Shown here in pieces: positions 36,591 through 59,478 of a stretch of 64,000 nt of DNA. The translations under genes were made by a program, and so were the position numbers. The notes under the pieces are model-generated. The model made no database searches, was not told where the DNA came from, and was given only the letters and a program-made list of their open reading frames with translations. Source of the DNA: a virus; the IMG/VR virus record IMGVR_UViG_3300024259_002316, positions 15,719 through 79,718 of that record, one strand, 5' to 3'. How positions within the stretch are numbered: the stretch's first letter is position 1; each line of letters begins with the position of its first letter.

Positions 36591-36686
36591 CTCCGAAAAT
36601 ATAGAAAATTTATTTTTTCCAGACAATGAGTTTTTCATAATTGTTGTAATGAATGATGTAAATAATCCTTTAATAATGGAGCAGAA

Positions 36687-37892
36687 ATGGCAAAACAAAT
36701 AATCACAAGTCTTTTAGACACAGACCTTTATAAACTAACCATGCAACAGGCGGTGCTCCAGTTGTTCCCAAAATCTGCGGTAACTTATAGGTTTAAGAAC
36801 AGGGGGGATCAAAGATTTAATGCCGATTTCCTACAAAAACTCCAAGACCAAATATTTTTAATGTCATCAATTCAACTAACTCCAGAAGAATATTCGTGGA
36901 TTAAGAGGGAAATTCCTTTCTTTAAATCTTTATATATTGAATATTTAAAGAATTACCGTTTTAATCCAAACGAGGTTATGGTTAGTTTGGGTCAAGATGG
37001 TGATATTCTTTTAAATATAAAAGGATTATGGGCTTCTACAATACTCTGGGAAGTGCCTCTGATGGCTATAATTAGCGAACTTTACTTTAGAGAAATAGAT
37101 ACTGAATGGAGACCTAGCGATGTCGAGGTAGAGGTTCGAGCAGGAGATAAGATGAGAGACCTACAAAGTGCTCAATGTCTTTATGCCGACTTTGGGACAA
37201 GGCGTAGAAGAGGGTTCTGGGTTCAGGATGACGTGGTTGGTGTCATGGCAAGGGCCCAAAAGAATGCTCACTTTCCCTGTTTTATAGGAACAAGTAATGT
37301 CTATTTTGCTATGAAGTATAATATTAAACCTATCGGGACGATGGCACACGAATGGTTTATGGGTATGAGTGTTCTAGAAGGTTTATATAATGCAAATTAT
37401 TTTGCTTTGGAAAATTGGGTAAGAGTTTATCATGCAGATCTAGGTATTGCTCTAACTGATACTTATAGTTTTGATGCCTTTCTTAAAGATTTTAAAATGG
37501 AATGGGCCAAGATTTATGACGGTGTTCGTCATGATAGTGGAAATCCTTGTTTCTTCGCGGATAAAATAATTGAAATGTATAAGGGTTATGGGATAGATCC
37601 TCTATCTAAAACCATTGTTTTTAGCGATAGTCTCACCACAGATAAGGCAATTCAGATAAAAGCATATTGTGAAGGTAGAATAAAAGTTAGCTTCGGCATA
37701 GGGACTCACTTTACTAACGATTTTGAAAATAGCAAAGCTCTCAATATGGTTATCAAGATGTGGTCCTGTGCCGCAAGCGAAAGACATAGACAAATACCTG
37801 TAGTTAAACTAAGCGATGAGAATGGTAAGGTTATGGGAGATCCAGATGCTGTAAAAGTCGCTAAATGGATGTTTTTCGGAGAAAAATTATAA
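36687..37892 (+). CDS. pncB: Nicotinate phosphoribosyltransferase
   Basis: SLLDTDLYKLTMQQAV, DFGTRRR, GTSNV, GTMAHEW, LTDTY, GVRHDSG, IVFSDSL, FGIGT, VKLSD. Confidence 0.93.
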   Translation: MAKQIITSLLDTDLYKLTMQQAVLQLFPKSAVTYRFKNRGDQRFNADFLQKLQDQIFLMSSIQLTPEEYSWIKREIPFFKSLYIEYLKNYRFNPNEVMVSLGQDGDILLNIKGLWASTILWEVPLMAIISELYFREIDTEWRPSDVEVEVRAGDKMRDLQSAQCLYADFGTRRRRGFWVQDDVVGVMARAQKNAHFPCFIGTSNVYFAMKYNIKPIGTMAHEWFMGMSVLEGLYNANYFALENWVRVYHADLGIALTDTYSFDAFLKDFKMEWAKIYDGVRHDSGNPCFFADKIIEMYKGYGIDPLSKTIVFSDSLTTDKAIQIKAYCEGRIKVSFGIGTHFTNDFENSKALNMVIKMWSCAASERHRQIPVVKLSDENGKVMGDPDAVKVAKWMFFGEKL

Positions 37893-42051: not shown

Positions 42052-42267
42052 ATGAATTGGACCGAAATTGTTATAATAATATATACTTTTTTATTGTTTT
42101 TATATGCCTGTTTTTTGACATGTAGAGTAACTTACATACAAGAATTAGAAGAACAAAATATAAAAGATAAATATGAAAAAAGAACAAATTTACATGTAAA
42201 AATATATTATATAGCAGCAGGCGCTTTGATGACTATGATTGTTGTTTTTGATAAATGTTTTAAATAA
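42052..42267 (+). CDS. Small membrane protein
   Basis: Two hydrophobic segments; AAGGA RBS. Confidence 0.5.
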   Translation: MNWTEIVIIIYTFLLFLYACFLTCRVTYIQELEEQNIKDKYEKRTNLHVKIYYIAAGALMTMIVVFDKCFK

Positions 42268-42280
42268 GAGAAAGAAAAAA

Positions 42281-43051
42281 ATGGATTACCAATTAGAAAT
42301 ATATAATGTATCTCAATGGATGAAAAACTACGCTGAAAAAGCAGGTAGCGATGGCTATGTGGTTGGACTAAGTGGGGGCATCGATTCCGCTGTTGTCGCC
42401 TGTCTTGCCGTAAAAGCTCTTGGCAAAGACAATGTTATCGGAGTATCAATTCCATGTCAAACAAAAGACGAAAGCATGCAAGATGCTGCATATCTTTCCA
42501 TGGATCTCGGGATTGCTTTAAGAGTCTTTCCGATTGATGAAGCATACGAAAATTTCTATAGCAGACTTTTACCTGGAAAGAAGGAAACGCACCAATTGAC
42601 TCAGGCCAATATGAAAGCAAGACTCAGAATGACTGTTTTGTATATGATGGCCAATCAATTTAATTATCTTGTTGCTGGCACAGGAAATCTATCAGAGTTG
42701 ATGGTGGGTTATTGTACCAAATATGGAGATGGGGGAGTTGATATAGAATCATTAGGAAACTACTACAAATCAGAAGTATATAAGATGGCAGAACTTATGC
42801 CAGAGATACCTGATTCTACTAAAACAAAAGCTCCATCCGCCGACCTGTGGGAGGGGCAAACTGACGAAGAAGAACTTGGGATGAGTTATGTTGAACTAGA
42901 TACTATCCTTAGAGACATAAATCGGCAAGGTCTAGTTTTGCCATCGACAATACTTGCTTTAGGAGAAGAAAAAACTGGTAGAGTTCAATCTATGATCAAA
43001 ACTGCTGAGCACAAAAACAATACTCCGCCCAGATATAAAAGAAATTCCTAA
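42281..43051 (+). CDS. nadE: NH3-dependent NAD+ synthetase (start revised)
   Basis: GLSGGIDSAVVA, NMKARLRM, GTGNLSE, GYCTKYGDG, KAPSADLWEGQTDEEELG; no glutaminase domain. Confidence 0.93.
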   Translation: MDYQLEIYNVSQWMKNYAEKAGSDGYVVGLSGGIDSAVVACLAVKALGKDNVIGVSIPCQTKDESMQDAAYLSMDLGIALRVFPIDEAYENFYSRLLPGKKETHQLTQANMKARLRMTVLYMMANQFNYLVAGTGNLSELMVGYCTKYGDGGVDIESLGNYYKSEVYKMAELMPEIPDSTKTKAPSADLWEGQTDEEELGMSYVELDTILRDINRQGLVLPSTILALGEEKTGRVQSMIKTAEHKNNTPPRYKRNS

Positions 43052-50266: not shown

Positions 50267-50366
50267 AATTCCAGACAATGAGTTTTTTCAATTAGTAGGT
50301 AAGAAAGACCTAAAAACGACGTAAAAAAGGTAAAAATGACCAAAAACGACAAAAAAAGGTAAAAAG

Positions 50367-53896: not shown

Positions 53897-53938
53897 TATA
53901 TAAATTTAGAAAAAAGTAGAAAAAAGTGAAAAAAAGAC

Positions 53939-53966
53939 TTGCATTTCAAAAGTGAAAGTGTATAAT
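53939..53966 (+). promoter_or_regulatory. Sigma-70-like promoter for the nicotinamidase-vWA operon
   Basis: TTGCAT-16-TATAAT preceded by AAAAAAGT(A/G) repeats. Confidence 0.65.
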
Positions 53967-54019
53967 AGCAGTTGTAGTGAAGAATAAGGTTACTAATAAT
54001 TTTTTGAAAGGAAGTAGCA

Positions 54020-54877
54020 ATGGCTGAAAGAATTGACTTGTTGATCATTGACCCACAAAATGACTTTTGTTCCCCCGACGCGAATGCAAAAAAGGGGACT
54101 CCTCAAGAAGGGAATGGAGTCTACGAAGGGACTCTGTATGTTCCTGGTGCAGAAAAAGACATGGAACGACTAGGAGAGATGGTCAAAAAGTTTGGTACCA
54201 AAATCAAGAAAATCCATGTAACTCTTGATTGCCACCACTTAATTGACGTAACTCATCCCTTGATGTGGAGGAACAGTGATGGGCAGAATCCTGACCCATT
54301 CTCCATCTTTGGTTCAAAAGAAATTAAAGATGGGGTCTGGACCCCTGTGTTTCCTTCTCTCCGTCAAAAGTTTATTGACTACTGCGAAGAACTCGAAACA
54401 GGGTGTCGATACCCATTATGTATTTGGCCTCCCCACTGTTTGATTGGAAGTCCTGGTAATAATGTTCTGCCTATATTATTCGATACTCTTCAAAAGTGGG
54501 AAGAGAACAGGACAGATAATGTGGATTATGTAAGTAAAGGAAGTAATCCTTTTACCGAACATTATTCGGCCGTCAAAGCAGAGGTTCCTGATGTTCAAGA
54601 TCCTTCAACGCAATTAAACACTCGTTTAATTCAAACGTTGATGGAGGCAGACCAAATTCTGATTGCAGGAGAAGCAGGTAGTCACTGTGTTAAATCAACT
54701 GTGGAAGATATCGCAGATGGTTTTCAAGATGATTCCTACATAAAAAAGATGATTCTTCTTGAAGATGCTGTCAGCCCTGTTCAAAGTCCATTCGTAGATT
54801 TTCCTGCTATTCAAGCTCAGTTTATTGCTGACATGAAGGCAAGGGGAATGCAAACCGCAAATACCACCGATTTTTAA
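54020..54877 (+). CDS. pncA: Nicotinamidase/isochorismatase-family hydrolase (PncA-like)
   Basis: LLIIDPQNDFC, D.H, WPPHCLIG, KG.NPFTEHYSA, AGEAGSHCV (catalytic D/K/C). Confidence 0.8.
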   Translation: MAERIDLLIIDPQNDFCSPDANAKKGTPQEGNGVYEGTLYVPGAEKDMERLGEMVKKFGTKIKKIHVTLDCHHLIDVTHPLMWRNSDGQNPDPFSIFGSKEIKDGVWTPVFPSLRQKFIDYCEELETGCRYPLCIWPPHCLIGSPGNNVLPILFDTLQKWEENRTDNVDYVSKGSNPFTEHYSAVKAEVPDVQDPSTQLNTRLIQTLMEADQILIAGEAGSHCVKSTVEDIADGFQDDSYIKKMILLEDAVSPVQSPFVDFPAIQAQFIADMKARGMQTANTTDF

Positions 54878-54891
54878 AGGAAAACAAAATC

Positions 54892-55632
54892 ATGAGTAGT
54901 ACTACTTTAACCCAACATAGTTTGACAGGTCAGGCATATGGATATTCGGCAGCAGATCTCGGAGATCTGGGAGCAACCGAATATACTCTTGTTACCATGG
55001 TCGTTGATGGTAGTGGCAGCGTTTCTGCTTTCAAAGATGAAATTGAAACATGTATTCAAGAGGTTGTAAAGGCATGTAAATACAGTCCTCGATCTGATTA
55101 TTTACTTATCAGATTAATTGTTTTCAATAGTGATATGAAAGAAATACATGGTTTCAAACAGTTAATTGATTGCGATATCAATGATTATAAAGATTGCATA
55201 CATCCTAGTGGAACTACAGCGTTGTTCTCAACAGCAAGAAATGCAATTACTGCCACCAATGATTACGGTAAGCAATTAGCAGACAATGATTTTGAAGCCA
55301 ATGCTATTGTGTTTATTCTAACTGATGGCATGGACAATGAATCAGGAAGTATTGATTCATCTTCTGTGGGTGCCGCTTTGAAAGATGCTATGAGGGACGA
55401 GGCTCTTGAGTCAATAGTATCTATTCTAGTCGGTGTCGGCATTGGTGATTCATACAATGTTGGTGATTACTTGGATACTTTTAAAGATGAAGCAGGTTTG
55501 AACCAGTATGTAGAAATCAAAAATGCTACTGAAAAAACCTTAGCTAAACTTGCCGATTTCATCTCTAAATCGGTATCGAGTCAAAGTAAGGCGCTAGGCA
55601 GTGGGTCAATGTCTCAACAGTTGACTTTCTAA
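54892..55632 (+). CDS. vWA-domain protein (TerY-like)
   Basis: MIDAS VVDGSGS, SGTTALF, FILTDGMDN. Confidence 0.85.
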   Translation: MSSTTLTQHSLTGQAYGYSAADLGDLGATEYTLVTMVVDGSGSVSAFKDEIETCIQEVVKACKYSPRSDYLLIRLIVFNSDMKEIHGFKQLIDCDINDYKDCIHPSGTTALFSTARNAITATNDYGKQLADNDFEANAIVFILTDGMDNESGSIDSSSVGAALKDAMRDEALESIVSILVGVGIGDSYNVGDYLDTFKDEAGLNQYVEIKNATEKTLAKLADFISKSVSSQSKALGSGSMSQQLTF

Positions 55633-55659
55633 AAATTAACGTGGTCGTTATTTTGGTTG

Positions 55660-55696
55660 CCCTACCTATCCTTTTGGGTAGGTGGGGCTTTTTTAT
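55660..55696 (+). terminator. Intrinsic terminator after vWA gene
   Basis: GCCCTACCTATCC-TTTTG-GGTAGGTGGGGC followed by TTTTTT. Confidence 0.75.
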
Positions 55697-55725
55697 TAAT
55701 CAAATTTCTATTAGAAGAAAATATT

Positions 55726-55923
55726 ATGAAAACTTTTATAGCTGAACATAATGGAATCTATCTTGGAGGATACTCTGTTATTACAGCAAAAGATAGAAAC
55801 CAAGCAAGAAGATTATTAAAAAAATTACTAAAAGAACATAGCTTATCATTAAACAGTATTACACTTGAAGAAGTTGATATAACTTCTCCTAATGCTGCAA
55901 TGATCTGGAATGGAGATTATTAA
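55726..55923 (+). CDS. Small hypothetical protein (start revised)
   Basis: MKTFIAEHNGIYLGG; the track start lies inside the terminator. Confidence 0.55.
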   Translation: MKTFIAEHNGIYLGGYSVITAKDRNQARRLLKKLLKEHSLSLNSITLEEVDITSPNAAMIWNGDY

Positions 55924-56768
55924 TGAACACTAATTGTGCTTTTTATATAGGAACTACTCACGATTTCTGCCAAGATTATGCTCGTGTAAGGAAAAATGCA
56001 GTAATAGTATCTGATGGTTGCTCTGGCTCTCTTTGCTCAGATATAGGATCAAGAGTGCTTGGCGTCACAGCAATAAATAAAATAATAGAATTAGACAGTC
56101 TCTATAATTTTGACGAAAAAGAATGTATTTTGCTTGCTCGTCCATCAATACAAATGCTAAATTTACCCCACGAGTGCTTAGATGCCACTTTGTTAGCTGC
56201 TATTGTGTATGAATATGGATCACAAGCAATATGCTGCGGAGATGGGGTGATAGTCATATCGATGAAAAATGACTATAAAATTGTAATTGATTGTGCTTAT
56301 AGTGATAGTTATCCTTTTTACATGAATTATCTTTATGATACTTCAGGAAGATATCTTAGTTGGAAAAATAACCATAATAAAAGAATAATTACTATGACAG
56401 CGATTAGTCCTGAAGGAGAGGTGATTTCAGAAATAATCGGAGAAAACAAAAGATTGCCTCAAGATGCAGGTGTTATAAAAGTATTAGAACATAAAACCCT
56501 CGTCGAGATACCAGATAATAATCTTATTGAATTTATTGCTGTAATGTCAGATGGCGTTCATAGTTTTTATGAAACCATAACAACAGAAACTTCAAAATTT
56601 AATAAATCAGTATCTTACATAGATGTTTTAAAAGATTTTTTAGCATTTAAGAATTATAACCAGCTATTTGTGCAAAGAAGAGTTAATAAGTTTCGTAAAA
56701 CTTGTGCTAAAAAGAATTGGGGCAATTCTGATGATGTCTCATTGGCTGTTATTTATGCTGGAGAATAA
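55923..56768 (+). CDS. PP2C-like protein phosphatase (TerY-P type)
   Basis: H..CQDY, VSDGCSG, LDATLL, CGDGV, VMSDGV, DDVSLA. Confidence 0.85.
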   Translation: MNTNCAFYIGTTHDFCQDYARVRKNAVIVSDGCSGSLCSDIGSRVLGVTAINKIIELDSLYNFDEKECILLARPSIQMLNLPHECLDATLLAAIVYEYGSQAICCGDGVIVISMKNDYKIVIDCAYSDSYPFYMNYLYDTSGRYLSWKNNHNKRIITMTAISPEGEVISEIIGENKRLPQDAGVIKVLEHKTLVEIPDNNLIEFIAVMSDGVHSFYETITTETSKFNKSVSYIDVLKDFLAFKNYNQLFVQRRVNKFRKTCAKKNWGNSDDVSLAVIYAGE

Positions 56769-57102
56769 AAATTTATTCAAAAAAAATAAACATAAAAAAT
56801 GAAAAACTTTTTATTCGATTTTCTCGTTTTCAAGCAAAAAGAACGATAAAAGGAGCAAAACAATTTTTCGATGCTCAAAGTTTTGGAGATTTTCCTCAAG
56901 ACCCTGACCCTTATTATATTTGTTTGAATGACGGAAAGCAACAATTTGATCTATTATGTAGTGAATATCAACAAATGTATTCTAATGGAGAATGGTGGGG
57001 ATTCTACCAATTATGGATAGATTTTAAAGGTGAGAGATGGTTATTGTCTCATCTTTGTAAATGGCATAAAAATATTCCCCAATGGATAAATAAAGAAAGT
57101 CA

Positions 57103-58827
57103 ATGATGCAAGTATATATTCAAGGCAATAAGAATAAAATCAATTTGACAAAAAATCAATTTGTAGCATCTGGAGGAGAAGGGTCTATTTACGCTTCAAA
57201 AGGAACTGCCTTTAAAATATATTCTAGTTCTAAGCAGGTAATACCTCATTCTAAAATAAAAGAATTGTCTTCTATAGCCAATCCTAATGTTATTAAGCCA
57301 GAACAACTAGTTTTGGCAAATAATAACAAACCCATTGGTTATACTATGAAACATGTCCCATCGACTTATGCTTTATGTCAGATTTTTCCCAAAGCATTTA
57401 GAGATAGAACAGGACTGGACACAAAAGAAGTCCTAAAACTTGTTCAAAAAATGCAATCAACTATTTCTGATATTCATAAAAAAAATATTTTGATTGTTGA
57501 TCTGAATGAAATGAATTTTCTGGTTGATAAGAAATTCTCCAATATATTTTTTATAGATGTCGATAGTTATCAAACTTCTAGTTTCCCAGCAACAGCTATT
57601 ATGGAAACTATCAGAGATCGACATATGGTCGATAAGACTGCTTTCTCCGTATTAACCGATTGGTTTTCATTTGCAGTCGTATCTTTTCAGATGTTTATAG
57701 GAATTCACCCATACAAAGGGAAACATCCAACAATTAATTATCCTCATGATAAAATGAGGCAGCTAGATGAAAGGATGCAGCAGAACATACCTGTTTTTCA
57801 TAGAGATGTAAAATATCCTAAAGTTTGTTTGCCTTTTGATGTTATCCCTCAAGCATATAAAGATTGGTATAAAGCTGTCTTTTTTGATGGCAAAAGATTG
57901 CCTCCGCCTACAGAACCTGTGCAAGTTCTTGTTATACCTATTGCGGTCCAAACTGTTAAAGGTAATGAAGATTTTGATATTACTGAAATATTTACATACA
58001 ATAGTCATATTATAAGGTATGTATCTATAGACGGGAATAGAGCAATAACTACTTCGGACGGTCTTTATATAGACAAAAAGGAGATACCTCAAACCTATGG
58101 CAATAGGAATATGCATGTCGCTATTACTCCTTTAACTAATAAGGTTATGTCTGCCTCTCTAGTTAACGGCGAAGTTTTTGTATATAATTGCTCTGACAAG
58201 ACCTTCCCCAAACAAAGAATCGCAGCAGATGATATCATGTCATCCAAAGGTAGAGTTTATATTAAAAATAAAGATATAGTATCTGAACTTACTTTTGTTG
58301 AAATGGGAAAAAATATTCATGTGGTTTCTCAACATGTAGGAAATGTCATGGAAAATTCTACTAAATTCTATGACGGAGTTATTATACAAAACGTCTTAGG
58401 ATCATTTGTGGCTTCTATATTTCCATCTTCTGGAATGCACCATCAAATAAAATGTCCAGAATTCACAGGTTATCAGATTATAGATGCCAAATATAGGGAC
58501 AATGTGCTAGTAGTCATTGCTAGTCAAAAAGGTAAATATGATAAGTTTATCTTAAAGTTTGATAACAAATTCTCAACTTACTCATTACGAAAAGTCGATG
58601 ATATATCATATGTTGGTATAAACTTTGCAGTTTTAGAGAATGGGATAGTTGTCCATATAAATGAGAATGAAGAAATGGAAATCTTTTCTAATAAGAAAGA
58701 TTCTAATACTGTAAAGGTAATTGATAATGATGCCATATCAGGAAATATGAAGCTATTTAATGATGGTGTTCAAGTTGTTTTTGCTCAAAATAAAACATTA
58801 TATAGATTAAAGATGAAAGGAAAATAG
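57103..58827 (+). CDS. Ser/Thr protein kinase with C-terminal beta-rich domain (TerY-P type)
   Basis: SGGEGSIY, AFKIY, IVDLNEMNFLV, FIDVDSY, DWFSFAV, IHPYKG. Confidence 0.88.
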   Translation: MMQVYIQGNKNKINLTKNQFVASGGEGSIYASKGTAFKIYSSSKQVIPHSKIKELSSIANPNVIKPEQLVLANNNKPIGYTMKHVPSTYALCQIFPKAFRDRTGLDTKEVLKLVQKMQSTISDIHKKNILIVDLNEMNFLVDKKFSNIFFIDVDSYQTSSFPATAIMETIRDRHMVDKTAFSVLTDWFSFAVVSFQMFIGIHPYKGKHPTINYPHDKMRQLDERMQQNIPVFHRDVKYPKVCLPFDVIPQAYKDWYKAVFFDGKRLPPPTEPVQVLVIPIAVQTVKGNEDFDITEIFTYNSHIIRYVSIDGNRAITTSDGLYIDKKEIPQTYGNRNMHVAITPLTNKVMSASLVNGEVFVYNCSDKTFPKQRIAADDIMSSKGRVYIKNKDIVSELTFVEMGKNIHVVSQHVGNVMENSTKFYDGVIIQNVLGSFVASIFPSSGMHHQIKCPEFTGYQIIDAKYRDNVLVVIASQKGKYDKFILKFDNKFSTYSLRKVDDISYVGINFAVLENGIVVHINENEEMEIFSNKKDSNTVKVIDNDAISGNMKLFNDGVQVVFAQNKTLYRLKMKGK

Positions 58828-59115: not shown

Positions 59116-59478
59116 ATGGCAGAAGAGAGAAAAAACTACTGGATAAAAATATTCATTAAGAAATGCACTTCTTTACATACTGCTCAAGAGCAACTAGATG
59201 CTTATTTCGAGTGGTGTGAACATACCTATAATGTGTCCGAACAATACTCTAATCAATTAAAGACAATATTCACAATTGACGAGTATATTAATAGGCTTAT
59301 TCCTGTTGTGGACAAATATTTCTCAATAGACGAGTTGAAAGAAATGATAAGATTCTATTCAACCGATACTGGGAAAAAACTATTAGATCTTAGTTTTTTA
59401 CAAAATATAGGAAAAGCCAGTATGGATCTCAACACAGAGATAGAACAAAAATTTTCAACAGGGAATAACAAATTGTGA
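59116..59478 (+). CDS. DUF2059-like protein
   Basis: KYFSIDELKEMIRFYSTDTGKKL. Confidence 0.6.
   Translation: MAEERKNYWIKIFIKKCTSLHTAQEQLDAYFEWCEHTYNVSEQYSNQLKTIFTIDEYINRLIPVVDKYFSIDELKEMIRFYSTDTGKKLLDLSFLQNIGKASMDLNTEIEQKFSTGNNKL

What the first reader, a model, noticed from the sequence alone, without database searches (positions are those of the whole stretch)
54020..58827. Nicotinamidase-vWA-PP2C-Ser/Thr kinase module: a TerY-P-like triad carried by a phage and wired to NAD metabolism
Seen: pncA-like and vWA genes form a promoter-to-terminator unit, followed by PP2C and kinase genes with small ORFs interleaved. Known: the TerY-phosphorylation triad (vWA + PP2C + kinase) is a bacterial stress and antiphage system. 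Inference: the phage has captured a phospho-switch, used against competing phages or to rewire host signalling, whose input or output may be nicotinamide released by NADase defences. The terminator would set vWA in excess over kinase and phosphatase.
Basis: partly seen in the sequence, partly recalled or inferred. Interest (0 to 1): 0.75.

Follow-up and report, generated by a model that had tools for sequence, protein, structure and literature searches.

The report
Nicotinamidase cassette with kinase-phosphatase-vWA switch
A giant phage carries a fixed four-gene unit (a nicotinamide-recycling enzyme, a metal-binding adaptor, a phosphatase and a protein kinase) that recurs in well over a hundred huge phages and in bacterial chromosomes next to the other NAD+ recycling genes, which points to a phosphorylation control of NAD+ recovery that I could not find described.

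Summary
Window 54020-58827 encodes, on one strand, a nicotinamidase-like hydrolase, a vWA protein with an intact MIDAS site, a PP2C phosphatase and a Hanks-type Ser/Thr kinase. A sigma-70-like promoter precedes the first gene and a strong terminator hairpin follows the vWA gene. The two small interleaved ORFs are not conserved.

The window is a fragment of a huge phage. The gene order PNC>vWA>PP2C>kinase recurs in 43 of 59 and 69 of 80 viral loci (seeded on the hydrolase and the kinase respectively) and in 46 of 80 bacterial loci. All catalytic residues are invariant. pncB, nadE and the NAD regulator NrtR lie beside the cassette, or even inside it, in about half of the loci.

So the link to NAD metabolism is real, but it is to Preiss-Handler salvage, not to a free-standing defence triad:
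- PADLOC gives no TerY-P hit.
- The kinase carries a C-terminal 7-bladed beta-propeller, not a zinc ribbon or OB fold.
- The closest characterised relative is the E. coli YegL-PphC-YegI triad.
- Some bacterial copies sit among ordinary chromosomal genes.

Most likely this is a reversible phospho-switch on nicotinamide recycling; the target is inferred. The scan has noted this cassette before on other DNA (72 notes, at least 60 genomes). I found no paper describing it.

The parts
53938..53967 (+). Promoter-like site TTGCAT-16 nt-TGTATAAT (extended -10) ahead of the hydrolase gene. It contains AAGTGA-N4-7-TATAAT, a motif found only here and upstream of pncB (36573) in the window.
   Evidence: Sequence read. 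Motif count 2, 0.17 expected by chance.
54020..54877 (+). Nicotinamidase-like cysteine hydrolase (PNC, P0001, 285 aa). Catalytic residues D11, K173, C223. Metal ligands D70, H72, H79/H139. Carries a roughly 45-aa insertion relative to M. tuberculosis PncA.
   Evidence: Residues invariant in 47 viral and 79 genomic homologues.
54892..55632 (+). vWA protein (P0002, 246 aa). MIDAS residues D39-x-S-x-S43, T109, D145. The conserved Ser cluster S225/S227/S232 lies on the C-terminal helix, and S241 in the tail just beyond it.
55659..55697 (+). Intrinsic-terminator-like hairpin (13 bp stem, 8 GC pairs, 4-nt loop) followed by TTTTTTATT.
   Evidence: A comparable hairpin follows vWA in 12 of 43 relatives, against 3 of 50 after PNC, 0 of 39 after PP2C and 3 of 37 after the kinase.
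55726..55923 (+). 65-aa ORF (from its ATG start) overlapping the PP2C start. No homologue found, so its coding status is doubtful.
55923..56768 (+). PP2C-type Ser/Thr phosphatase (P0004, 281 aa). Metal-binding residues D31, D107, D210, D270, D271.
56924..57106 (+). 60-aa ORF with a TTG start, overlapping the kinase start. No homologue found, so its coding status is doubtful.
57103..57915 (+). Kinase domain of P0006 (residues 1 to about 271). Hanks-type, YegI-like. Conserved G24-G25-E26, K38, D133/N138, D152, and the D186-W187 subdomain IX motif.
   Evidence: hhalign against E. coli YegI gives probability 98.5%, E 3.9e-15.
57916..58827 (+). C-terminal seven-bladed beta-propeller of P0006 (residues 272-574). 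Its sequence is poorly conserved.
   Evidence: AlphaFold model pLDDT 89.6, pTM 0.87, about 27 strands. Only propeller matches in PDB and AFDB.
36687..37892 (+). pncB (nicotinate phosphoribosyltransferase), the next step of the same pathway, 16 kb upstream in this phage.
   Evidence: PF04095 208 bits and PF17767 131 bits.
42239..43051 (+). nadE (NH3-dependent NAD synthetase), the last step of the pathway.
   Evidence: PF02540 247 bits.

Best explanation
The four genes are one conserved functional cassette that belongs to the nicotinamide-to-NAD+ (Preiss-Handler) salvage gene set.

Proposed mechanism:
1. The first gene encodes an active metal-dependent nicotinamidase. It turns nicotinamide, the product of NAD+ cleavage, into nicotinate for PncB and NadE, which this phage also encodes.
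2. The vWA protein, the PP2C phosphatase and the YegI-type kinase form a reversible Ser/Thr phosphorylation switch that gates this first step.
3. The kinase's beta-propeller takes the input signal, either a protein or a small ligand.
4. The kinase phosphorylates the invariant serine cluster on the C-terminal helix of the vWA protein, and PP2C reverses this.
5. The phosphorylation state changes what the vWA MIDAS site binds, most likely the nicotinamidase encoded directly upstream.
6. In the phage, the cassette lets infection rebuild or hold NAD+ (for its NAD-dependent ligase, or against NAD+-depleting defences) under post-translational control.

Shown: the gene content, the conservation of the cassette and of all active-site residues, the association with pncB, nadE and NrtR, the folds, and the homology of the kinase to YegI.

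Inferred: enzymatic activity, that vWA is the phospho-target, that vWA binds the nicotinamidase, and the nature of the signal.
For: Linkage:
- PNC-seeded IMG/VR loci: 43 of 59 hold all four genes, 41 of them in the order PNC>vWA>PP2C>kinase, all on one strand.
- Kinase-seeded loci: 69 of 80 are complete, 65 in canonical order.
- Bacterial and archaeal assemblies: 46 of 80 are complete, all canonical.

NAD context:
- Clustering the flanking ORFs gave only pncB, NrtR and two forms of nadE as recurrent neighbours.
- In 13 kinase-seeded loci these genes lie inside the cassette, for example PNC-vWA-PncB-NadE-PP2C-kinase.
- In Rhodoferax MAG contigs NrtR is divergent from the operon. The flanks examined in one of them (L116) are cellular-type genes.
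- The window itself has pncB and nadE. A spacer motif is shared only by the pncB and PNC promoters.

Activity:
- The nicotinamidase triad and metal ligands, the MIDAS site, the PP2C aspartates and the kinase catalytic residues are invariant across viral and genomic members.
- The family profile hits solved nicotinamidases first.

Switch:
- S225, S227 and S232 are invariant on the last helix of a confidently modelled vWA fold.
- E. coli YegL shows the same Ser-rich C-terminal stretch.
- In the E. coli triad, YegI is an active autophosphorylating kinase (bioRxiv 10.1101/819920). PphC is the characterised PP2C-like phosphatase of the same operon (bioRxiv 10.1101/303594, title and abstract only).

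The PNC and vWA genes are nearly always adjacent, and a terminator recurs after vWA.
Against: - No direct evidence exists for any phosphorylation target or for a nicotinamidase-vWA contact.
- The same hydrolase subfamily also occurs as a plain pncA-pncB pair with none of the three triad genes found within 9 kb in some Armatimonadota and other loci (L072, L100, L126, L133). The enzyme therefore does not need the triad.
- The hydrolase scores below the curated cut-offs of Pfam and NCBIfam, and its substrate has not been assayed.
- No NadD gene was seen in the clusters, so the encoded pathway is incomplete without the host.
- NrtR is absent from the 90-kb record that holds this window, but that record is only about 19% of the genome.
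- The beta-propeller is poorly conserved, which fits a variable protein target at least as well as a fixed metabolite.
Confidence: 0.6

Rival explanations
1. A TerY-P-type defence or conflict triad was captured by the phage and is used for superinfection exclusion or against host defences. The nicotinamidase acts as an accessory that processes nicotinamide released by NADases.
For: - The architecture vWA + PP2C + Ser/Thr kinase matches the definition of the TerY-P triad (PMC11090510).
- The kinase weakly matches the defence kinase models PD-T4-6 and mad6.
- The surrounding phage region is rich in NAD/ADP-ribose genes: Nudix and LigA here, and macro, NADAR and Nudix in Variovorax.
- A poorly conserved propeller would suit recognition of variable invader proteins.
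Against: - No PADLOC TerY-P model matches the vWA or PP2C proteins of five family members, even at E <= 1.
- The kinase lacks the zinc ribbon or OB fold that defines the TerY-P kinases.
- The cassette sits among ordinary chromosomal genes in bacteria and beside an NAD-metabolism regulator, not in recognisable defence islands.
- Its constant partners are metabolic enzymes.
Confidence: 0.15
2. The kinase and phosphatase act on host proteins as part of phage takeover. The neighbouring nicotinamidase and vWA genes merely share an early transcription unit.
For: - Phage-encoded Ser/Thr kinases that target host proteins are known (own knowledge; T7 gp0.7).
- A terminator separates PNC-vWA from PP2C-kinase here and in 28% of relatives.
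Against: - The same four genes form one compact operon in cellular genomes, where there is no host to take over.
- The kinase tree shows taxonomically coherent Armatimonadota, Acidobacteriota and Myxococcota clades. This suggests long residence in cells.
- Linkage to the hydrolase survives at 25-45% identity.
Confidence: 0.08
3. The vWA protein is a MIDAS-type assembly or metal-loading chaperone for the metallo-nicotinamidase, analogous to the vWA partners of MoxR systems. The kinase-phosphatase pair only tunes that chaperone.
For: - The PNC and vWA genes are adjacent in most loci.
- The hydrolase has a fully conserved metal site.
- vWA domains are described as Mg2+-dependent peptide-binding chaperones in ADP-ribose-processing neighbourhoods (PMC9503650).
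Against: - No MoxR-type AAA+ ATPase accompanies the cassette in any locus examined.
- Related hydrolases work in pncA-pncB pairs without any vWA gene.
Confidence: 0.1
4. The linkage is historical rather than functional. An ordinary pncA happens to have been inherited next to an unrelated signalling triad.
For: Operons can hitch-hike, and some loci keep the hydrolase without the triad.
Against: - The order and strand are kept in 152 of 158 complete loci, at identities down to about 25-30% and across phages and at least eight phyla.
- Insertions of homing-endonuclease-like and unknown genes accumulate between the four genes without ever dispersing them.
- The reverse, kinase-seeded search still finds the hydrolase in 69 of 80 loci.
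Confidence: 0.05

Closest known systems
E. coli YegL - PphC (YegK) - YegI triad (yeg operon). Kinase and phosphatase characterised biochemically: bioRxiv 10.1101/819920 and 10.1101/303594.
   Same: - Same gene order, vWA > PP2C > kinase.
- The kinase domain is clearly homologous: hhalign 98.5%, E 3.9e-15, 241 columns, with the shared motifs GGEG, KIY, D-x-N-x-x-NF and ID-x-DS-[YF]-Q.
- PP2C is related over its N-terminal half (76%, E 2e-5).
- The vWA proteins share the MIDAS site and a Ser-rich C-terminal stretch.
   Different: [quoted passage not shown] The kinase here is soluble with a 7-bladed beta-propeller.
- The vWA-YegL similarity is weak (hhalign probability 10%).
- The yeg operon has no nicotinamidase and no NAD genes nearby.
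- The substrates and physiological role of the Yeg triad are unknown.
TerY-P triad (Anantharaman, Iyer and Aravind 2012, as summarised in PMC11090510; stand-alone anti-phage versions from Gao et al. 2020, cited there).
   Same: A three-component set of a vWA protein with a MIDAS site, a PP2C phosphatase and a Ser/Thr kinase. It is proposed to act as a phosphorylation-dependent switch.
   Different: - The TerY-P kinase carries a C-terminal zinc ribbon or OB fold. This one carries a beta-propeller.
- No PADLOC hit for the vWA or PP2C proteins.
- TerY-P associates with Ter, CoCoNuT or restriction genes. This cassette associates with pncA, pncB, nadE and NrtR.
NrtR-regulated Preiss-Handler (salvage I) operons, e.g. 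nrtR<>pncA-pncB-nadE (Rodionov et al. 2008, PMC2330246).
   Same: The same pathway genes and the same Nudix-wHTH regulator lie next to the cassette in many loci. The divergent nrtR<>operon layout is seen in Rhodoferax.
   Different: The described regulons contain no kinase, phosphatase or vWA gene. This phage fragment has no NrtR.
Phage NAD+ reconstitution pathways NARP1, NARP2 and NARP3, and the NAD+ biosynthetic clusters of jumbo phages (bioRxiv 10.1101/2024.02.11.579819; PMC13464706; PMC11662467).
   Same: Phage-encoded enzymes that rebuild NAD+ from its breakdown products. A pncB-nadD-nadE cluster has been noted in gut jumbo phages.
   Different: - NARP1-3 use Adps/Namat, Nampt/Nmnat and PnuC/NadR, not the deamidated route through nicotinamidase.
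- None of these papers mentions an associated kinase, phosphatase or vWA gene.

Membership tests
Nicotinamidase (PncA) within the isochorismatase superfamily | Catalytic Asp-Lys-Cys triad | tested here: met
   D11, K173 and C223 align with D8, K96 and C138 of M. tuberculosis PncA. K173 and C223 are invariant in 24 viral and all 79 genomic homologues; D11 is invariant in the viral set and present in 78 of 79 genomic ones, the remaining sequence having a gap.
Nicotinamidase (PncA) within the isochorismatase superfamily | Metal site Asp-His-His (D-x-H ... H), which separates nicotinamidases from other isochorismatase-like hydrolases | tested here: met
   D70, H72 and H139 are invariant in both sets. 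H79 is invariant in the viral set and present in 77 of 79 genomic members. WPPHC aligns with the H71 motif of PncA.
Nicotinamidase (PncA) within the isochorismatase superfamily | Closer to solved nicotinamidases than to other superfamily members | tested here: met
   Of the seven best matches of the family profile, six are named nicotinamidases or pyrazinamidases and the seventh (3r2j) is annotated only as an alpha/beta-hydrolase-like protein. The best is 2h0r at E 4e-19; entries named isochorismatase appear only at E > 1e-5.
Nicotinamidase (PncA) within the isochorismatase superfamily | Reaches the curated family cut-offs | tested here: not met
   Pfam PF00857 scores 22.9 bits against a cut-off of 27. 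NCBIfam NF008623 scores 30.7 against 174. This is a divergent subfamily of about 265-285 aa with an insertion.
Nicotinamidase (PncA) within the isochorismatase superfamily | Hydrolyses nicotinamide to nicotinate | not testable with these tools
   Needs an enzyme assay. The genomic link to pncB in 58 of the 219 loci is supportive.
TerY-P triad | vWA protein with MIDAS site + PP2C phosphatase + Ser/Thr kinase encoded together | tested here: met
TerY-P triad | Kinase fused at its C-terminus to a zinc ribbon (TerY-C) or an OB fold (definition from PMC11090510) | tested here: not met
   The C-terminal 300 residues fold as a 7-bladed beta-propeller (pLDDT 89.6).
TerY-P triad | Recognised by defence-system profile models | tested here: not met
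   PADLOC-DB gives no hit for four vWA and three PP2C family members at E <= 1. The kinases match only PD-T4-6, mad6 and MkoA, weakly. I could not verify which TerY-P models that library holds.
TerY-P triad | Confers phage resistance or tellurite resistance | not testable with these tools
   Needs a plaque assay or a resistance assay.
E. coli YegL-PphC-YegI type triad | Kinase domain homologous to YegI | tested here: met
   hhalign probability 98.5%, E 3.9e-15, residues 20-267 against YegI 20-296.
E. coli YegL-PphC-YegI type triad | Phosphatase homologous to PphC and vWA protein homologous to YegL | tested here: inconclusive
   PP2C profile against PphC: 76%, E 2.2e-5, N-terminal 115 columns only. 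vWA profile against YegL: probability 10%, E 0.003, though the MIDAS site and the Ser-rich C-terminus align.
E. coli YegL-PphC-YegI type triad | Kinase anchored in the membrane by two helices after the kinase domain | tested here: not met
   YegI topology is from 10.1101/819920. Here the region after the kinase domain is an all-beta soluble propeller.
NrtR-controlled NAD salvage regulon | NrtR gene adjacent to the cassette | tested here: inconclusive
   NrtR (NUDIX + NrtR_WHD) lies within 7-9 kb (the flank fetched) in 51 of the 219 loci, and is divergent from the operon in Rhodoferax. It is absent from this window's 90-kb record, which is only 19% complete.
NrtR-controlled NAD salvage regulon | NrtR operator upstream of the operon | not tested
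   No operator search was done. The 19-nt box shared by pncB and ligA is not present upstream of the hydrolase gene.

The most novel reading that the evidence does not exclude
The cassette is a sensor-controlled fourth phage route for rebuilding NAD+, the deamidated route (nicotinamide > nicotinate > NaMN > NAD+). The kinase's beta-propeller detects NAD+ depletion, either through a breakdown product or through the attacking NADase itself. It then phosphorylates the vWA protein, which releases or activates the nicotinamidase. Salvage is thereby switched on post-translationally within the short time of an infection. The same switch governs NAD+ homeostasis in many bacteria. This would be the first case of a TerY-P/Yeg-type triad with an identified metabolic output.
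Probability: 0.2. Interest if true: 0.85.

Novelty: new variant of a known kind. Interest (0 to 1): 0.62.

Why it matters
vWA-PP2C-kinase triads are widespread (TerY-P, and E. coli Yeg), but none has a known substrate or output. Here the triad is locked to one enzyme of known chemistry, which offers a direct experimental handle: nicotinamidase activity and NAD+ levels can be measured.

NAD+ depletion is a major anti-phage strategy, and phage NAD+ rebuilding pathways are an active field. A phosphorylation-gated deamidated route in huge phages would add both a pathway and a mode of control.

The cassette is abundant. At least 2,500 kinase clusters at 90% identity match at E <= 1e-10. It spans huge phages and many bacterial phyla. 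It is annotated only as 'cysteine hydrolase' and 'hypothetical protein'.

Tried and rejected
- Megablast of the 4.8-kb region against GenBank phages found nothing. Protein-level searches were needed.
- Complex prediction for nicotinamidase + vWA, using my own alignments, gave 'no answer' (score 0.02). This is neither support nor evidence against binding.
- The vWA family profile found no PDB sequence match at E <= 0.01. The fold search was needed instead.
- PADLOC and PHROGs gave no informative names for the hydrolase, the PP2C or the small ORFs.
- The small ORFs at 55726-55923 and 56924-57106 have no homologues in 219 related loci at E <= 0.01. I do not count them as parts of the system.
- The recurrent 370-aa inserted ORF (cluster c13) has no Pfam or PDB match.
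- No NrtR was found in the window's own record.
- The 19-nt box shared by pncB and ligA is not upstream of the hydrolase gene.
- The original TerY-P paper (PMC4104200) is not held, so its definition is taken second-hand from PMC11090510.
- I considered that the bacterial hits were all mis-binned phage or prophage. I rejected this for Capsulimonadaceae, Chthonomonadaceae and Rhodoferax, whose flanks are cellular. It remains possible for the Bradyrhizobium and Patescibacteria clade.

Full report
WHAT IS THERE

The window is bases 15719-79718 of a 90.4-kb IMG/VR virus record that CheckV rates as 19% complete. It is therefore a fragment of a huge phage. Its nearest relatives are contigs of 460-548 kb.

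Between 54020 and 58827, four + strand ORFs encode the following:
- a 285-aa isochorismatase-superfamily hydrolase
- a 246-aa vWA protein
- a 281-aa PP2C_2 phosphatase
- a 574-aa protein with a kinase domain

The single-sequence domain scores are weak; two of the four fall below Pfam's cut-offs. I therefore tested each call with family alignments built from related loci.

THE FOUR PROTEINS

Hydrolase. It aligns with M. tuberculosis PncA across the WPPHC metal motif, the KG...YSA lysine motif and the catalytic cysteine. A profile of 24 family members hits solved nicotinamidases first (yeast Pnc1, E 4e-19). Six of its seven best matches are named nicotinamidases or pyrazinamidases, and entries named isochorismatase appear only much lower. 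D11, K173 and C223 (catalytic triad) and D70, H72, H79 and H139 (metal site) are invariant or nearly so in viral and genomic homologues.

vWA protein. It has a complete MIDAS site (D39, S43, T109, D145). It folds confidently (pLDDT 89.4) into a vWA domain that matches integrin I-domains. Its last helix carries serines S225, S227 and S232, which are invariant in 24 viral members and present in 54-55 of 56 genomic members.

PP2C. It keeps all five metal-binding aspartates.

Kinase. It keeps the glycine loop, the catalytic lysine, the D-x-N-x-x-N catalytic loop, the D-x-D metal loop and the DW(F)S subdomain IX signature of protein kinases. Residues 272-574 fold (pLDDT 89.6, pTM 0.87) into a seven-bladed beta-propeller. 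The only structural matches are generic propellers.

TRANSCRIPTION SIGNALS

A TTGCAT-16-TGTATAAT promoter-like site precedes the hydrolase gene. Its spacer motif AAGTGA-N4-7-TATAAT occurs only twice in 64 kb, the other copy lying upstream of pncB.

A strong hairpin plus T-run follows the vWA stop codon. A comparable terminator follows vWA in 12 of 43 non-redundant relatives. The figures after the other genes are 3 of 50 (hydrolase), 0 of 39 (PP2C) and 3 of 37 (kinase).

The two small interleaved ORFs have no homologue anywhere.

CONSERVATION OF THE CASSETTE

Four GenBank phage records hold both the hydrolase and the kinase; three of them are huge phages of 462-595 kb.

I scanned IMG/VR with the hydrolase, then in reverse with a kinase alignment, and scanned 185,579 species genomes with a hydrolase alignment. 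This gave 219 loci. All four genes are present in:
- 43 of 59 hydrolase-seeded viral loci
- 69 of 80 kinase-seeded viral loci
- 46 of 80 genomic loci

The genes are always on one strand, and 152 of the 158 complete loci have the order hydrolase > vWA > PP2C > kinase. Many incomplete loci are cut by contig ends. The two viral sets overlap, because some contigs were found by both seeds. Identities fall to 25-45%, so this is selection and not recent common descent.

In phages, unrelated genes (homing-endonuclease-like and unknown ORFs) have been inserted between the four genes without dispersing them. In bacteria the operon is compact.

THE NAD CONNECTION

Unsupervised clustering of all flanking ORFs gave only four further recurrent families. 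Pfam identifies them as PncB, NrtR (NUDIX + NrtR winged helix), glutamine-dependent NadE and NH3-dependent NadE.

They lie within 7-9 kb (the flank fetched) in about half of the complete loci. In 13 kinase-seeded phage loci they sit inside the cassette (PNC-vWA-PncB-NadE-PP2C-kinase, or PNC-vWA-PP2C-PncB-NadE-kinase). In Rhodoferax, NrtR is divergent from the operon, and pncB-nadE-nrtR lie just upstream.

The window's phage has pncB at 36687 and nadE at 42239, plus a Nudix gene and an NAD-dependent ligase.

Some loci have the same hydrolase subfamily next to pncB alone. This supports its role as a true salvage nicotinamidase and shows that the triad is an add-on.

PHAGE OR CELL

The Capsulimonadaceae chromosome, the Chthonomonadaceae contig and the Rhodoferax contig have ordinary cellular flanks: permease, BlaR1-type peptidase, ECF sigma factor, MFS transporter.

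The Bradyrhizobium copy has prophage-like flanks: DUF3799 nuclease, phage-type Dam, HerA.

In a kinase tree, the virus and genome labels need only 5 changes, against a mean of 31.6 for shuffled labels. There are coherent Armatimonadota/Acidobacteriota and Myxococcota clades, and the window sits in an all-viral clade of ten. The tree is unrooted, so the direction of transfer is open. 'Captured by the phage' is therefore possible but not shown.

COMPARISON WITH KNOWN SYSTEMS

TerY-P, as defined in PMC11090510, has the same three protein types, but its kinase ends in a zinc ribbon or an OB fold. PADLOC recognises neither the vWA nor the PP2C protein of this family. I therefore do not file the cassette as TerY-P.

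- The kinase domain is clearly homologous to YegI (98.5%, E 3.9e-15).
- The PP2C is related to PphC over its N-terminal half (76%).
- The vWA match to YegL is weak, but it aligns the MIDAS site and the Ser-rich C-terminus.
- The gene order is the same.

YegI is an active kinase that autophosphorylates (bioRxiv 10.1101/819920). PphC is the characterised PP2C-like phosphatase encoded in the same operon (bioRxiv 10.1101/303594; I saw only its title and abstract). YegI's substrates are unknown, and it is membrane-anchored rather than propeller-bearing.

None of the following mentions a kinase, phosphatase or vWA partner: the NrtR regulon paper, the survey of viral NAD+/ADP-ribose systems, the jumbo-phage reviews, the jumbo-phage NAD+ paper and the NARP3 paper, which also summarises NARP1 and NARP2.

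MECHANISM

I commit to a reversible phospho-switch on the first step of nicotinamide recycling. The propeller is the input, the vWA serine helix is the phospho-site, and the MIDAS site is the output contact to the nicotinamidase.

The last helix of integrin I-domains is the allosteric lever of the MIDAS site (own knowledge). This makes serines on that helix a plausible control point. These steps are inference. The only direct test I could run, a complex prediction, gave no verdict.

STANDING IN THIS SCAN

The scan has noted the same cassette before on other DNA: 72 notes in at least 60 genomes. The follow-ups reached the same reading. My counts were made independently on this window's relatives.

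VERDICT

- Observation: confirmed.
- Interpretation: partly supported.
- Novelty: a new variant that joins two known kinds, a Yeg/TerY-P-type triad and a Preiss-Handler salvage cluster.
- Interest: 0.62.

Noticed in passing
window 36617-36635 and 50269-50287: An exact 19-nt box, TTCCAGACAATGAGTTTTT, lies upstream of pncB and of the NAD-dependent ligase gene. It occurs nowhere else in the window, even allowing 3 mismatches (0.08 expected by chance). It is not upstream of the hydrolase gene.
   Followed up: partly
L056:6992-8086: One 364-aa ORF joins the N-terminal 125 residues of the hydrolase to a full vWA protein. It could be a fusion or a deletion variant of the cassette.
   Followed up: no
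L020:6941-8314: A degraded cassette. The hydrolase gene is followed directly by only the C-terminal propeller part of the kinase, read through a stop codon. The vWA and PP2C genes are missing.
   Followed up: no
L225 (Variovorax sp. SRS16 plasmid 2, NZ_LR594667.1, 610-646 kb): An 801-kb replicon of a cultured isolate carries the cassette split by IS3 and IS21 elements. Nearby genes include pncB, an NAD kinase, two Nudix genes, macro and NADAR genes, a Glu-tRNA-ligase-family gene and a peptidyl-tRNA hydrolase. This gene content resembles that of huge phages. PGAP names the hydrolase 'cysteine hydrolase' and the vWA protein and kinase 'hypothetical'.
   Followed up: partly
L115, L134 (Bradyrhizobium) and L098-L127 (Patescibacteria MAGs): In the kinase tree the Bradyrhizobium copies, which have prophage-like flanks, nest inside a long-stemmed clade of contigs binned as candidate-phyla bacteria. 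Those contigs, one of them 412 kb, may be phages or mobile elements rather than cellular DNA.
   Followed up: no
L018:8819-9928, L029, L033, L054, L096: An ORF of about 370 aa with no Pfam or PDB sequence match is repeatedly inserted between the vWA and PP2C genes. L053 holds a copy too, but downstream of the kinase gene.
   Followed up: partly
window 59116-59478: A 120-aa DUF2059 protein lies just after the kinase gene. It is conserved in that position only in the closest related phage contigs, not in the wider family.
   Followed up: partly
L116:5097-7775: In Rhodoferax, an 892-aa adenosine-deaminase-NUDIX fusion protein lies between the pncB-nadE-nrtR genes and the NrtR<>cassette promoter region.
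   Followed up: no
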